NCBI GenBank assembly: GCA_964391195.1
Contig: CAYMLG010000009.1
Location: forward strand, 4,167-68,166
Direction of reading: 5' to 3'
Source: an uncultured Anaerolineaceae bacterium
Lineage (GTDB): Bacteria > Chloroflexota > Anaerolineae > Anaerolineales > UBA4823
Length of the DNA: 64,000 bases
Below, piece after piece: positions 4,900-42,312 of this stretch. The notes below the pieces were generated by a model that made no database searches, was not told the DNA's origin, and worked only from the letters and a program-made list of their open reading frames with translations. Position numbers and translations under genes: made by a program. Positions within the stretch are counted from its first letter, which is position 1. Each line of letters starts with the position of its first letter.

Positions 4900-7800
4900 T
4901 TAGAAGCCGATATCGTCCAGCTCCTTCAACAGCGAGGCTTCCACTTCTTCCTCGCTCATCTGCTCCAGTTCGGCCATCAGTTCATCTTCTCCGGAAGATT
5001 CAGCGGATTTTATCTCAGAAACCAGAGATAGGCCAAGCACATCTTTCGCCAGGTACTCGGTGAGGGCAGCGATGGTCGGGTATTCGAAGGCTACGGTAGT
5101 GGGGAGCTTGTGCCCCATGCTCCGCTTGAGGCGGTTGCTCAGTTCCACCGCCATCAGCGAGTCCATCCCCAGGTCGGTCAGGCCGCGATAAGGATCGATC
5201 GACTGAGAAGCGTCGAGGCCCAGGACGCGGATGACCTGCTCCTGGACGTGCTCCATCAGGCGCTCGAAGCGGTCTTCGGGCTCGGCGCTCTCCAGCGCCT
5301 GGAGGAAGTTCTGCCCCTCCTGGGCCTGGCCTTCGCGCTGCGCGGCGGCGTTCTGGCTCACCAGTTCGCGCAGGAGCGGCTGGACCTCCTGGGCGCTGAC
5401 CCGCGTCGAGAGCTTCTTCCAATCGACGGGGTAAACGCTCACCTGGGCGAGATCCTTCTCCAGTAGCTGTCTGAACACCTGTGCGCCTTCTTCGGGGGCG
5501 ATGTAGCCCACCCCCTGTTCGCGCCAGCGCCGGTGTTCGCGTTCGCCCAAGCCGGCCGCCATGCCGACCTCGGACCAGGGACCCCAGTTGATGCTGGTGG
5601 CGCTCAGGCCCTGCGCCCGGCGGTAGTGAGCCAGGGCATCCAGGTAGGCGTTGGCCGCGGCGTAATTCGACTGGCCGCTGGCGCCCAGGATGGAAGCCAT
5701 CGAAGAGAAGAGGATGAAGAAATCCAGGTCGAGATTGTGGGTCAGGCTGTGGAGCAGCCAGGCGCCGGCGGCTTTCGGGGCTAGCACGGTTTCGAACCGC
5801 TCCCAGGTCTGCTGTTGGAGGATGCCGTCATCGATCACCCCGGCGGCGTGGATCACACCCCGCAGCGGCGGCATTTCGTGGGCGATCCTCTCCAGCAACT
5901 GCTGTAGGTCTTCCTTTTGGGTCACATCCGCCCGGGCGACGGTGACGTTCACCCCCGCTTCCTTCCAGGCGGCGATCTCCTGGCTGGCAAAGTCGGAGGG
6001 CTGCGAGCGGCCCACCAACACCAGGTGTTTTGCCCCGCTCTCGATCAGGCTCCTGGTCGTGACCAGCCCCAGGCCGCCCAGACCGCCGGTGACGAGATAG
6101 GTGGCGTCGGCGTGGACGCTCGCCTCCGGCCATGTGGACGGCTGCGTGACGACCACCTTGCCGATATGGCGAGCCTGGGCCATATAACGGAACGCCTCGA
6201 CCACCTGCTGGATGGGGAAGGCCCGCAGCGGGAGGGGGCGCAGGCGCCCGGCCTCGAATTCCTGCATCAGTTCGGCGAAGGCCGTCTTCAAGAAGCCTGC
6301 GTCAGCCTGCATCACCTCGCCCAGATCGTAGACGTAATACTCCAGCGTCGGGTTCAGGGCCTTCACCTGCTGAGTGTCCCAAATGCCGCGCTTGCCGATT
6401 TCGAGGAACCGCCCGTGATCCGCCAGGATCGACAGGCTCTTGGGGATGAACTCGTCTGCCAGGGAGTTCAGGACGATATCCACCCCCCGCCCGCCGGTGA
6501 GTTCCATGATCTCCCGGGCGAAGTCCAGGGTGCGGGAACTCAGGACATGTTCCACCCCCAGAGAATGGAGGTAGGCATGCTTCCTGGGGCTCCCGGCGGT
6601 GGCAAACACCTGGGCCCCGGCCTGTTGGGCGATCTGGACGGCAGCCAGGCCCACCCCGCCGGCCGCGGCGTGGATCAGCACCCGGTCGCCGGGTTTGATC
6701 TTCGCCAGGTGGTGCAGCCCGTAATGGGCCGTCAGGAAGGCGATGGGGATGGTGACCGCCTCGGCAAAGCTCATCCAGGCCGGTTTCGGCAGCACCAGGT
6801 CGGCGGAGGTGATGGCATGGCTGGCGAACGCGCCCGGGACAAAGGCGATGACCTCGTCGCCTACAGATATGCCGGTCACCCCCGGGTCGGTGCGGACGAC
6901 CACCCCGGCGCACTCCGATCCGACGGGCCCGGGGTCACCCGGGTACATGCCCATCACATTTAGCACGTCCCTAAAGTTCAGGCCGGTGGCGCGGACGCGC
7001 AGCTCAACCTCCCCGGGGCCGGGCTCGCGATGTTCAACCGGGTGGAAGGTCAGGCGATCGAGGATGCCTCGCTCCGGCACGTGCAATTCGAAAGGCCTGT
7101 TATCCATCGGGACCGGGCTGTGTGCCTCACGCAGCCGGGCCAGGCGGGCGGTGAAGCGCTCCGGGCCGCGCCAGGCGATGCGGTCCTCACCGTTGGATGC
7201 GTGGATCTCGCGCAGCAGGGCGCCTGCCAGGTCCGCCGCCTGCTCCCCATCCAGGTCCACCAGGGCAGGGCGCAGTTCGGGGTGTTCGAGGGCGATGGCG
7301 CTGCCCAACCCCCATAAGGCGCTTTGAACCGGGTCCACGATTCCGGAACCGACCGGCTGCGCCCCGCGAGTGACCACCCACAGGCGCGCGGCCTGATCCT
7401 GGAGCCCGCGGCTCTCGGCCCAGCGGGCCAGGGCCTGGGCGAGGTGCAGGGCGCTGCCGGTGCCGAACTTCATGCGGTCCGGTTGGAAAGCCGGCTCCTG
7501 CAGCCAGCTCGTGTCCAACCCCCACAGGTGGATGGCGCCGCGCAGGGGCTCCACGTGGCGGTCACCGATCTCGGCCAGCAGGCGGGTGAATTCCTCGGCA
7601 GAATCCGGATTGTGCGACCAGGTCCCCTCGGGGCCGGGTAGAGTGCTATTCGCAGCGTAGACGAGCACCGCCGTCCCACCCTGCTCCCGCAAGGCTTCCG
7701 CCAGGCACTCTCCTACCCCCATGCGGTCGGCGAAGATCAGCCACAGGCCGCCGGGCTCCAGGGCTCCGGGCGTCTCGGCCAGCGGGGCGGGCTTCCAGTC

Positions 7801-41502: not shown

Positions 41503-42312
41503 CTATACCGAGTTAAATGAGATGAGGCCGTCGCCTTGCAGAGCGGAGACGATGGCCTGGATAACGGCTTCTAATTGGCTATGGATAAAAAAGTGGTCGC
41601 CTGGGAACATGCGCAGGGTAAATTGGTCGCAGCACAAATCCCCCCAGGCAGCCAGGTCCGCCTGTGCGACCAGTGGATCTTCCTCGCCCCCGAAGACAGT
41701 CAGTGGAATCGATATCTTTGCCCCCGAATAAGCATACGTCTCCACCAGGGTGAAATCCGCCCGCAGCGTGGGCAGGAACAGGCTCATCAAGTCCTCGTCC
41801 TCCAGGATCACCTGGGGGATGCCGTTGTAGCGGCTCTGGATTTCGGCGATCAAGGCCTGATCTGGCAGCAGATACACCGGCGGATTGGGATCGGGCAAGT
41901 GGGCGGCCCGCCGCCCGGACACAAACAGCCGGGCCGGGGAGGGAGAGCCCTGATCCCGAAGGCGGGTGAGCAGTTCGAACCCCATCAGCGCGCCCAGGCT
42001 GTGGCCGAAAATGGCGAAGGGCCGGTCCAGGTGAGGGGAAATCTCCTTCGCCAGATCGTAGCTTAGGGCCCGCAGGCTGGTGTATGGGGCCTCTTTGATC
42101 CGGGTCTCACGACCGGGCAGGCGGATGGCGCACAGCTCGATCTCGTCGGGGAGGAGCTTCGACCAGGGGAAATAGGCAGCCGACCCGGCGCCCCCGTATG
42201 GCAAACAGAACAACCGCATGCGGGCGCCTGGCCTGGGTTCGGGAAACACCAACCATGGGCTGGATGAGACGGACGTATTGAGAGTAGTCGATCGCAGCAT
42301 CGTCATTTGCAT
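41503..42312 (-). CDS. Type II (stand-alone) thioesterase
   Basis: 269-aa alpha/beta hydrolase with LFCLPYGGAGS, the nucleophile elbow GHSLGA and PGDHFF, the usual discrete PKS/NRPS thioesterase signature. Its stop lies 5 nt before the first PKS gene. Confidence 0.85.
   Translation of the reverse strand: MQMTMLRSTTLNTSVSSSPWLVFPEPRPGARMRLFCLPYGGAGSAAYFPWSKLLPDEIELCAIRLPGRETRIKEAPYTSLRALSYDLAKEISPHLDRPFAIFGHSLGALMGFELLTRLRDQGSPSPARLFVSGRRAAHLPDPNPPVYLLPDQALIAEIQSRYNGIPQVILEDEDLMSLFLPTLRADFTLVETYAYSGAKISIPLTVFGGEEDPLVAQADLAAWGDLCCDQFTLRMFPGDHFFIHSQLEAVIQAIVSALQGDGLISFNSV

What the first reader, a model, noticed from the sequence alone, without database searches (positions are those of the whole stretch)
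4900..42312. Assembly line has no loading module and no cis-encoded release domain
Seen: the first PKS protein starts directly with a condensing KS. Its active site is DTACSSS, so it is not a KSQ. It has no N-terminal docking helix, ACP, AT-ACP, CoA-ligase or GNAT loading domain. The last protein ends with an ACP and an acidic tail, with no TE, reductase, condensation or ST-TE domain. The only hydrolases available in trans are the type II TE at the operon head (41503-42312), the SGNH hydrolase at its tail (3823-4884) and the HGGG esterase just upstream (42507-43562). Established: type II TEs usually edit mis-primed carriers rather than release products. Inference: both priming and off-loading depend on discrete partners, or the chain is passed directly from the last ACP to an acceptor such as a sugar, a lipid or another synthase.
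Basis: partly seen in the sequence, partly recalled or inferred. Interest (0 to 1): 0.65.

Follow-up and report, generated by a model that had tools for sequence, protein, structure and literature searches.

The report
PKS line continues beyond the window
The six polyketide synthase genes really do lack a loading module and a release domain, but the missing release domain is probably a window-edge effect: related genomes carry a seventh synthase gene just downstream, so only the missing loading module is a genuine feature.

Summary
Pfam finds only KS, AT, DH, cMT, ER, KR and ACP domains, with no TE, reductase, condensation or loading domain. PKS1 starts with an active KS after a 13-residue leader.

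PKS6 is probably not the last module. Its "acidic tail" matches the C-terminal docking motif of PKS2-5. It is more conserved among orthologues (74-84%) than PKS6 as a whole (60%).

In three orthologous Anaerolineae lines (L005, L008+L028, L009+L026), PKS6 is followed by one or two exported SGNH hydrolase genes, often with a cadherin-like surface-protein gene. A seventh subunit follows: KS-AT-DH-KR-ACP-(ST)-C-A-T, with an N-terminal docking helix. The split locus L007 shows the same order. A more distant line (L025) ends in a canonical TE.

In the window the surface-protein gene runs off the left edge (position 1), so any seventh gene is out of view.

The KS-first start is conserved: TEII-(PPTase)-PKS1 heads L009 and L010 with no loader upstream. 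It is CoA-ligase-like, absent from the orthologous clusters, and more likely belongs to the neighbouring polysaccharide locus.

The SGNH hydrolase and the esterase carry export signals, so they are poor release candidates. This is an ordinary, uncharacterised hybrid PKS-NRPS cluster.

The parts
41503..42312 (-). Discrete type II thioesterase. It is the first gene of the PKS operon, 5 nt upstream of PKS1.
   Evidence: PF00975 E 8.8e-44. Best solved relative is RifR, E 2.5e-50. GHSLG and GDH motifs are present. A TEII also heads the orthologous clusters L009 and L010.
42313..42506 (-). AT-rich intergenic gap of about 195 nt upstream of the TEII. Probably the promoter region of the PKS operon.
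   Evidence: Sequence read. No sigma-70 consensus above chance. In the orthologues the TEII is the first cluster gene. The promoter role is an inference.
36383..41497 (-). PKS1: KS-AT-(inactive DH remnant)-KR-ACP plus C-terminal docking tail. This is the true first module, with no N-terminal docking helix or loading domain.
   Evidence: The orthologues in L009 and L010 have the same 12-13 residue leader, AT motif VDVAAHS and tail.
29756..36382 (-). PKS2: N-dock-KS-AT-DH-ER-KR-ACP-C-dock.
25242..29759 (-). PKS3: N-dock-KS-AT(QAAH)-cMT-ACP-C-dock, with no KR.
17468..25231 (-). PKS4: N-dock-KS-AT-DH-cMT-ER-KR-ACP-C-dock.
11511..17471 (-). PKS5: N-dock-KS-AT-cMT-KR-ACP-C-dock.
4900..11514 (-). PKS6: N-dock-KS-AT-DH-ER-KR-ACP, followed by a conserved docking-like tail (...[23 protein letters not shown]). 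It is the last PKS in the window but probably not the last of the line.
   Evidence: The tail is conserved in L005, L007, L008, L019 and L026.
4903..5040 (-). Orphan C-terminal docking-like tail of PKS6, about the last 46 residues.
   Evidence: Aligns with the tails of PKS2-5. The last 19 residues are 74-84% identical to orthologues, against 60% for the whole protein. No sixth N-terminal docking helix exists in the window.
3823..4896 (-). SGNH/GDSL hydrolase with an N-terminal signal anchor, translationally coupled to PKS6. It is a conserved passenger gene inside the assembly-line operon.
   Evidence: PF00657. It sits directly after the PKS6-type gene in L005, L007, L008, L019, L024, L025 and L026. 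In L006 it sits after the C-A-T gene that follows the PKS6-like gene. Family members are fused to extracellular domains.
1..3768 (-). 5' part (at least 1256 codons) of a secreted protein gene: DUF6923, eight Big_9/cadherin repeats, DUF6923. It runs off the left edge of the window.
   Evidence: The orthologues in L005 and L028 are followed directly by the seventh PKS-NRPS gene. The L028 orthologue continues about 450 residues further and ends in a second SGNH domain.
46797..47051 (-). Stand-alone carrier protein of 84 aa. Its stop overlaps the ligase start. It is a possible but unsupported loader partner.
   Evidence: PF00550 31.5 bits and on record. The PDB hits are PCP, ACP and DltC.
45274..46800 (-). 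ANL-family adenylating enzyme, CoA-ligase-like and not an FAAL.
   Evidence: Relatives with a small upstream ORF sit beside a polysaccharide deacetylase, an ATP-grasp protein or AsnB, not beside a PKS. It is absent from the orthologous PKS clusters.
42507..43562 (-). Secreted BD-FAE/LipQ-like esterase. It is not part of the conserved cluster.
   Evidence: It has a signal peptide, MKLFLKSIALIALLAVTAFG. It is absent upstream of the orthologous TEII genes.

Best explanation
The six genes are modules 1-6 of a longer hybrid PKS-NRPS assembly line conserved in uncultured Anaerolineae (Chloroflexota).

Shown:
- PKS1 is the genuine first subunit. It has an active KS, no docking helix and no loading domain, and this is conserved in orthologues.
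- PKS6 ends in a conserved docking-type tail.

Inferred from synteny:
- The tail hands the ACP6-bound chain to a seventh subunit, KS-AT-DH-KR-ACP-(sulfotransferase)-C-A-T, which carries an 'LSPLKRSL.ALRE' N-terminal docking helix.
- In this organism that gene lies just beyond window position 1. It would come after the SGNH gene and the rest of the cadherin/DUF6923(-SGNH) surface-protein gene.
- Release therefore happens further downstream. One distant relative has a canonical TE. The closest relatives show no visible TE, which leaves the head-of-operon TEII or an unknown acceptor.

Priming (inferred): with no conserved loader, PKS1 most likely primes itself. Either its unusual AT (VAAH/VASH type) or its KS takes an acyl-CoA or acyl-ACP starter directly, or the KS decarboxylates malonyl-ACP.

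The exported SGNH hydrolases and the surface protein would act on the product, or on something else, outside the cell and not on ACP6.
For: - No TE, R, C or loading domains in the six proteins.
- The N-dock profile hits PKS2-6 only. That gives six C-terminal tails for five N-docks.
- The PKS6 tail aligns with the other tails. It is more conserved than the protein: 74-84% against 60%.
- L009 and L026 lie on one 204-kb contig. The order is TEII-PPTase-PKS1..6 (a 36.7 kb span, against 36.6 kb in the window), then SGNH, SGNH, a 2951-aa KS-AT-DH-KR-ACP-C-A-T with an N-dock, then a further NRPS.
- L005 has the same PKS6-SGNH-Big_9 order as the window. It is followed 56 nt later by an open frame of at least 2376 aa that is 52% identical to that seventh subunit.
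- L008 and L028 come from the same sample. The order is PKS6, SGNH, cadherin, contig break, cadherin-DUF6923-SGNH, then a 3261-aa seventh subunit.
- L007, L024 and L025 also continue past SGNH. L025 ends in C-A-T-TE.
- The KS-first start is conserved with nothing loader-like within 10 kb upstream.
- SGNH proteins carry signal anchors, signal peptides or a lipobox, and some are fused to extracellular domains.
Against: - The seventh gene is not seen for this organism. The window ends in the intervening gene.
- No seventh-subunit homologue in the top 120 hits lies on a 115,079-bp contig, which is the length of the window's source contig.
- All short-read contigs break in the cadherin repeats.
- Docking-domain class could not be confirmed by sequence. 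The match to the CurK-CurL fusion 4MYZ has E=0.32 and the profile search found nothing. The single-sequence AF2 model of ACP6 plus tail has pLDDT 53.8.
- In the closest relatives (L027, L028) the seventh subunit is also followed by no TE. The line as a whole may still lack a cis release domain.
Confidence: 0.7

Rival explanations
1. The line truly ends at ACP6 in this organism. The head-of-operon RifR-like TEII hydrolyses the finished chain, or the 5-hydroxy thioester lactonises spontaneously. The docking-like tail is then a vestige or has another role.
For: - The TEII is the only conserved cytoplasmic hydrolase. It is translationally coupled to PKS1.
- A TEII can release terminal polyketides in vitro (PnG, abstract of PMC9730843).
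- Colinear logic puts a free 5-OH on the ACP6-bound chain (inference).
- No seventh subunit on a 115-kb contig was found.
Against: - The tail is intact and more conserved than the rest of PKS6.
- Every orthologous locus that could be followed past SGNH continues with PKS or NRPS genes.
- The window simply stops before the position where the gene would be.
Confidence: 0.15
2. The SGNH hydrolase encoded right after PKS6 is the off-loading enzyme. It would transfer or hydrolyse the chain from ACP6, for example onto a sugar or polysaccharide.
For: - It has tight, conserved linkage to the PKS6-type gene in all eight relative loci examined, and in one of them (L006) a C-A-T gene lies between.
- A polysaccharide locus lies nearby in the window.
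Against: - It has an N-terminal signal anchor, and paralogues have a cleavable signal peptide or a lipobox.
- Family members are fused to DUF6923, FN3, Big or He_PIG extracellular domains.
- In relatives the gene sits in the middle of lines that continue and, in L025, end in a TE.
Confidence: 0.05
3. Priming is done in trans by the carrier protein and ligase pair at 45274-47051. The ligase would activate a carboxylic acid, load it on the 84-aa carrier, and deliver it to KS1, as FAAL-ACP pairs do in cyanobacterial lipopeptide pathways.
For: - The pair lies on the same strand, 5 kb upstream.
- The two genes are translationally coupled.
- KS-first PKSs fed by FAAL-ACP pairs are known (PMC7524897 and PMC8460268, listed).
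Against: - The ligase resembles CoA ligases and the exosortase-associated ligase family. No FAAL appears among the top PDB or NCBIfam hits.
- The pair is absent from the orthologous clusters L009 and L010.
- Its relatives sit in polysaccharide or AsnB-type contexts.
- A Wzz/tyrosine-kinase gene, a secreted esterase gene and an AT-rich gap separate it from the TEII.
Confidence: 0.15

Closest known systems
Curacin-type cyanobacterial and myxobacterial cis-AT PKS lines with class 2 docking domains (CurG/H, CurK/L; review PMC9113145)
   Same: - One module per protein.
- A coiled-coil N-terminal helix before each KS and a short acidic helical tail after each ACP.
- In-line C-methyltransferases.
- A sulfotransferase domain after an ACP in the relatives' seventh subunit.
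   Different: - The docking class is not confirmed by sequence (E=0.32 to 4MYZ).
- There is no GNAT or AT-ACP loading module.
- In the relatives the ST is followed by C-A-T, not by a TE.
- Exported hydrolase and surface-protein genes are inserted between subunit genes.
FAAL-ACP initiated cyanobacterial lipopeptide pathways such as laxaphycin and puwainaphycin (PMC7524897, PMC8460268)
   Same: - The first PKS subunit begins with a KS.
- A stand-alone adenylating enzyme and carrier protein are encoded nearby.
- The PKS part feeds NRPS modules.
   Different: - The ligase here is CoA-ligase-like, not an FAAL.
- It is not conserved with the cluster.
- It sits in a polysaccharide operon.
Discrete RifR-type type II thioesterases, including PnG of the phoslactomycin PKS (PMC9730843)
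   Same: - A discrete protein of about 260 aa with an alpha/beta-hydrolase fold and a Ser-Asp-His triad, encoded with the PKS.
- It could both edit carriers and release chains.
   Different: No functional data exist here. Its position as the first gene of the operon is conserved, but its role is unknown.
Mycobacterial MAS/Pks-type lipid synthases that start with a KS and lack a TE (knowledge of the field, not tested here)
   Same: - KS-first architecture with no cis TE.
- The product is likely a methyl-branched reduced acyl chain.
   Different: - Here the methyl branches come from cMT domains with malonyl-type ATs.
- The system is modular, not iterative.
- No PapA-type acyltransferase or FadD-type FAAL was found.

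Membership tests
cis-AT modular type I PKS | Each module has a KS with a Cys-His-His triad, an AT with GHSxG and an ACP with a DSL serine. | tested here: met
   Pfam domains. DTACSSS, HGTGT (or THGTGT), N(x)GH, GHSxGE and GxDS[LM] motifs are present in all six proteins.
KSQ or other cis loading module (KSQ-AT-ACP, AT-ACP, GNAT, CoL-ACP) | An N-terminal loading didomain or tridomain, or a Cys-to-Gln change in the first KS. | tested here: not met
   KS1 keeps its Cys. Only 13 residues precede it and there are no extra Pfam domains. The same holds in the orthologues.
Terminal release module (TE, thioester reductase, terminal C, ST-TE) | A release domain C-terminal to the last carrier domain. | tested here: not met
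   No PF00975, PF07993, PF00668 or sulfotransferase hit in PKS1-6. Only 49 residues follow the Pfam ACP match of PKS6. Whether PKS6 is the last carrier is doubtful.
Class 2 (eight-helix-bundle) PKS docking domains | A C-terminal two-helix element after the ACP and an N-terminal coiled coil before the KS, with sequence or structure similarity to CurG/H, CurK/L or Bamb_5925/24. | tested here: inconclusive
   - The motif is shared by the PKS2-6 tails, and PKS1 has a related tail.
- The N-terminal helices are a recognisable family and align to the DEBS and CurL N-terminal coiled coils (E 4e-4 to 4e-3).
- A fused tail plus N-dock query matches the CurK-CurL fusion 4MYZ over its full length, but only at E=0.32.
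- The profile search found nothing.
- The AF2 model is helical but has low confidence.
Type II thioesterase (RifR-like) | A discrete alpha/beta hydrolase of about 250 aa in PF00975, with GxSxG, Asp and His, encoded in a PKS or NRPS cluster. | tested here: met
   PF00975 E 8.8e-44. RifR E 2.5e-50. GHSLG and GDH motifs are present. Whether it edits or releases is not testable with these tools.
FAAL-ACP trans loading system | The adenylating enzyme belongs to the fatty acyl-AMP ligase clade (FAAL-specific insertion, no CoA ligation) and co-occurs with the PKS. | tested here: not met
   - The top NCBIfam hits are fatty-acid CoA ligase and exosortase-associated ligase families, all below their cut-offs.
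- The top 60 PDB hits are CoA ligases, A domains and luciferases, with no FAAL.
- The pair is not conserved with the cluster.
- The insertion itself was not mapped.
SGNH/GDSL hydrolase acting as a cytoplasmic off-loading enzyme | An SGNH fold with a catalytic Ser, and access to the cytoplasmic carrier domain. | tested here: not met
   The fold is met (PF00657, GDSNSDEY block). Access is not met by inference: signal anchors and signal peptides, and fusions to extracellular domains. Topology was not measured.

The most novel reading that the evidence does not exclude
Even with the seventh subunit, the whole line may have no TE or R domain in this lineage.
- In L027 and L028 the seventh subunit ends in a T domain plus a conserved 'LDLExALxMLxF' tail.
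- It is followed by a Glyco_trans_1_2 protein and, in L027, by an LbH acyltransferase and a DegT aminotransferase.

The sulfated lipo-amino-acid product could then be passed from the last carrier to a sugar or polysaccharide acceptor. After export, the SGNH hydrolases and the cadherin/DUF6923-SGNH surface protein embedded in the operon would process or anchor it at the cell surface. That would make it a polyketide-lipid cell-envelope component and not a diffusible metabolite.
Probability: 0.15. Interest if true: 0.7.

Novelty: new member of a known kind. Interest (0 to 1): 0.3.

Why it matters
For the scan, this is a caution. A "missing release domain" was inferred from a window edge and from two non-PKS genes that interrupt the operon. 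ORF lists that omit frames running off the end hid the continuation, both in the window and in L005.

Biologically, the cluster is a conserved, uncharacterised Anaerolineae hybrid PKS-NRPS line found in sludge, digester, soil and compost metagenomes. Three features deserve follow-up:
- a conserved KS-first start with an unusual VAAH/VASH acyltransferase;
- exported SGNH hydrolases and a giant adhesin-like protein encoded inside the operon;
- an ACP-sulfotransferase-C junction in the relatives' seventh subunit.

None of these changes current understanding of PKS priming or release unless the novel case proves true.

Tried and rejected
- Esterase (42507-43562) as release enzyme: rejected. It has a signal peptide and is not conserved upstream of the orthologous TEII genes.
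- SGNH as release enzyme: rejected as unlikely. It is exported and sits mid-line in relatives.
- Carrier and ligase pair as loader: downgraded. It is CoA-ligase-like, not conserved with the PKS, and found in polysaccharide contexts elsewhere.
- '+' strand ORFs 352-3621 as the end of the operon: rejected. They are antisense artefacts of a minus-strand cadherin-repeat gene. The same error nearly hid the seventh subunit in L005 (then 53-55).
- Sequence proof of the docking class: the profile of the tails against the PDB found nothing relevant. The fused query gave only E=0.32 to 4MYZ.
- Single-sequence AF2 model of ACP6 plus tail: pLDDT 53.8, not usable.
- Finding the seventh subunit of this organism: no top-120 homologue lies on a 115,079-bp contig. 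Logan contigs break in the cadherin repeats and extend at most about 640 nt past window position 1.
- Promoter and terminator scan of 41400-47600: nothing above chance.
- RNA-run contigs cross the PKS6/SGNH, SGNH/cadherin and esterase/TEII junctions. DNA carry-over cannot be excluded, so this is not used as proof of co-transcription.
- Literature searches found no description of this cluster.
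Full report
**Layout**

The window carries six large minus-strand ORFs packed end to end: 36383-41497, 29756-36382, 25242-29759, 17468-25231, 11511-17471 and 4900-11514. Gaps or overlaps between them are at most 10 nt.

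A 269-aa gene ends 5 nt upstream of the first one (41503-42312). A 357-aa gene starts 3 nt after the last one (3823-4896).

**Domain content**

Pfam scans at E<=0.01 give:

| Protein | Domains |
|---|---|
| PKS1 | KS-AT-(weak PKS_DH_N only)-KR-ACP |
| PKS2 | KS-AT-DH-ER-KR-ACP |
| PKS3 | KS-AT-cMT-ACP |
| PKS4 | KS-AT-DH-cMT-ER-KR-ACP |
| PKS5 | KS-AT-cMT-KR-ACP |
| PKS6 | KS-AT-DH-ER-KR-ACP |

- No thioesterase, NAD_binding_4 reductase, condensation, AMP-binding, GNAT or sulfotransferase family is hit.
- No more than 64 residues follow any ACP.
- All six KS domains carry DTACSSS and both histidines.

**Termini**

- PKS2-6 each have 34-45 residues before the KS that form one recognisable helix family.
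- A profile built from them hits those five proteins (E 1e-16 to 1e-18) and nothing else in the six-frame translation of the window.
- PKS1 has only 13 residues before its KS, so it is the first subunit.
- All six proteins end in an acidic helical tail. The tails of PKS2-6 share one motif, roughly D/E-L-E-x-[LM]-[ST]-x-E-E-x-E-A-x-L-L-x-x-L. PKS1 has a related tail of its own (...ELLDLLEGELSRIEDLLE).
- The PKS6 tail ([30 protein letters not shown]) is a full member of this set. There are therefore six C-terminal docking-type tails for five N-terminal helices.

Sequence searches could not formally assign the docking class:
- The profile against the PDB found nothing.
- A fused tail plus N-dock query matched the CurK-CurL docking fusion 4MYZ over its full length, but only at E=0.32.
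- A single-sequence AF2 model was helical but of low confidence.
- The architecture matches what the review PMC9113145 describes for class 2 docking domains.

**Neighbours**

- The 269-aa protein is a RifR-like type II thioesterase (PF00975; RifR E 2.5e-50).
- The gene after PKS6 is an SGNH/GDSL hydrolase with an N-terminal transmembrane anchor.
- The esterase at 42507-43562 has a classical signal peptide.
Its stop overlaps the start of a 508-aa adenylating enzyme (45274-46800).
- A Wzz/tyrosine-kinase gene and the esterase follow on the same strand. An AT-rich gap of about 195 nt then precedes the TEII.
- Further upstream lies a polysaccharide locus: Wzy, four GT4 genes, an epimerase, a BNR protein, a sulfotransferase and Wzt/Wzm.
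- Downstream of SGNH, the '+' ORFs listed at 352-3621 are antisense artefacts.
- The real gene there is a minus-strand frame open from 3768 to beyond position 1 (at least 1256 aa). It has a signal peptide, DUF6923 and eight Big_9/cadherin repeats.
- The operon therefore does not end at SGNH, and the window cuts it.

**Relatives of the tail end**

The SGNH protein has more than 300 relatives, mostly from Chloroflexota/Anaerolineae metagenome bins. Some are fused to DUF6923, FN3, Big or He_PIG domains. In all eight relative loci fetched it follows the PKS6-type gene, directly except in L006:

| Locus | Gene order after the PKS6-type gene |
|---|---|
| L005 | SGNH; Big_9/cadherin protein (923 aa); 56 nt later an open frame of at least 2376 aa running off the locus. 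That frame is 52% identical to the L026 seventh subunit. It has an N-terminal docking helix, KS, AT, a sulfotransferase insert and the start of a C domain. |
| L006 | NRPS C-A-T; SGNH |
| L007 | SGNH; DUF6923-SGNH fusion; KS-AT-DH / KR-ACP-ST; C-A-T |
| L008 + L028 (same sample) | SGNH; cadherin; contig break; cadherin-DUF6923-SGNH; a 3261-aa KS-AT-DH-KR-ACP-ST-C-A-T; a Glyco_trans_1_2 protein |
| L019 (PKS6 90% identical to the window's) | SGNH; the surface-protein gene, where the contig breaks |
| L024 | SGNH; further PKS; NRPS |
| L025 | SGNH; C-A-T-C-A-T; TubC_N-C-A-T-TE |
| L026 | SGNH; SGNH; a 2951-aa KS-AT-DH-KR-ACP-C-A-T; further NRPS |

- L026 lies on the same 204-kb contig as L009, which carries TEII-PPTase-PKS1-PKS2-PKS3. 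The span from the PKS1 start to SGNH is 36.7 kb there, against 36.6 kb in the window. It is a true orthologue.
- The PKS6 tails of L005, L007, L008, L019 and L026 end in ...LL[KQ]EL[DN]DIGF*. They are 74-84% identical to the window's last 19 residues in the 60%-identity orthologues.
- The seventh subunits all begin with L[ST]PLKRSL.ALRE.. helices.

**Conclusion on release**

The most economical reading is that PKS6 is module 6 of a longer line. Its tail would dock to a seventh, hybrid subunit whose gene lies just left of the window.

This is inference by synteny and could not be shown for this organism:
- No seventh-subunit homologue in the top 120 hits lies on a contig of the source length of 115,079 bp.
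- Short-read contigs break in the cadherin repeats and reach only about 640 nt past position 1.

In the closest relatives (L027, L028) the seventh subunit is itself followed by no TE. Instead there is a Glyco_trans_1_2 protein, and in L027 also an LbH acyltransferase and a DegT aminotransferase. How the complete line releases its product therefore remains open. The conserved TEII is the only cytoplasmic hydrolase in view, and TEIIs can release terminal chains in vitro (PMC9730843).

**Conclusion on priming**

- The PKS1 orthologues in L009 and L010 (58% identity) also start 12-13 residues before the KS.
- They keep the unusual AT motif GHS[ML]GE...VDVAAHS. They are preceded only by the TEII and a PPTase, with unrelated genes further upstream.
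- A wider family of single-module proteins of about 1700 aa shares the VASH/VAAH motif.
- The absence of a loading module is thus a conserved, real feature.
- The window's carrier and ligase pair is a poor candidate loader. Its best matches are CoA ligases and the exosortase-associated ligase family, with no FAAL. Its relatives, each with a small upstream ORF, sit next to a polysaccharide deacetylase, an ATP-grasp protein or AsnB. It is absent from the orthologous clusters.
- I therefore favour self-priming by PKS1, through its AT or KS taking a starter directly, or through decarboxylative priming. This is inference only.

**Product (inference from colinearity)**

The chain on ACP6 would be R-CH(OH)-(CH2)3-CO-CH(CH3)-CH2-CH(CH3)-CH(OH)-CH(CH3)-CH2-CH2-CO-S-ACP6. 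This is a 5,13-dihydroxy-9-oxo trimethyl acyl chain that could form a delta-lactone or a 6,6-spiroketal. AT1 (VAAH) and AT3 (QAAH) have non-canonical motifs, so their extender units are uncertain.

**Context**

The sequence occurs in activated-sludge, digester, soil and compost metagenomes. Contigs from one compost RNA run cross the PKS6/SGNH, SGNH/cadherin and esterase/TEII junctions, but DNA carry-over cannot be excluded. No paper describing this cluster was found.

**Verdict**

- The "no release domain" conclusion is most likely a window-edge artefact.
- The "no loading module" part is genuine, but it is a known kind of situation.
- This is an ordinary, uncharacterised hybrid PKS-NRPS cluster with some unusual passenger genes.

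Noticed in passing
window 1-3768 (-): A giant secreted protein (at least 1256 aa) runs off the left edge. It has a signal peptide, DUF6923, eight Big_9/cadherin repeats and a second DUF6923. The '+' ORFs at 352-3621 are its antisense artefacts. In L028 the orthologue ends in a second SGNH domain.
   Followed up: yes
window 45274-47051 (-): A stand-alone 84-aa carrier protein is translationally coupled to a CoA-ligase-like adenylating enzyme. They head a small operon with a Wzz/tyrosine-kinase gene and a secreted esterase gene. Relatives sit in polysaccharide or AsnB contexts.
   Followed up: yes
window 36383-41497 and 25242-29759 (-): AT1 has VDVAAHS and AT3 has QAAHS in place of HAFH or YASH. 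A wide family of PKS1-like single-module proteins (about 1700 aa) almost always has VASH or VAAH. Extender or starter specificity is unknown.
   Followed up: partly
L005 13728-20855; L026 11125-19980; L027 52-9804; L028 2415-12200: The relatives' seventh subunit has an in-line ACP-sulfotransferase-C-A-T arrangement (the ST is missing in L026). It ends in a conserved 'LDLExALxMLxF*' tail. In L027 and L028 a Glyco_trans_1_2 protein follows and there is no TE.
   Followed up: partly
window 50312-63585 (-) and 47489-50215 (+): A polysaccharide locus: Wzy, four GT4 genes, an epimerase, a BNR protein, a stand-alone sulfotransferase and the Wzt/Wzm ABC transporter. A secreted PQQ-like beta-propeller gene is divergently oriented. 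The 809-aa ORF at 47882-50311 (-) has no family hit and is probably an antisense artefact.
   Followed up: partly
window 42313-42506: A strikingly AT-rich intergenic stretch of about 195 nt in a genome of about 62-70% GC, directly upstream of the TEII. It is probably the promoter or regulatory region of the PKS operon.
   Followed up: partly
L009 8856-9596; L010 8501-9244; L027 13012-13779: The orthologous clusters carry an Sfp-type PPTase gene, between the TEII and PKS1 or at the cluster tail. The window has none between the TEII and PKS1.
   Followed up: no
L029 29251-33734: A distant Anaerolineales hybrid line (GCA_020634935.1) is followed by a stand-alone sulfotransferase gene and a cassette that looks like an FkbH-type (methoxy/hydroxy)malonyl-ACP pathway: 3HCDH, a small ORF, an acyl-CoA dehydrogenase and a HAD hydrolase.
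   Followed up: no
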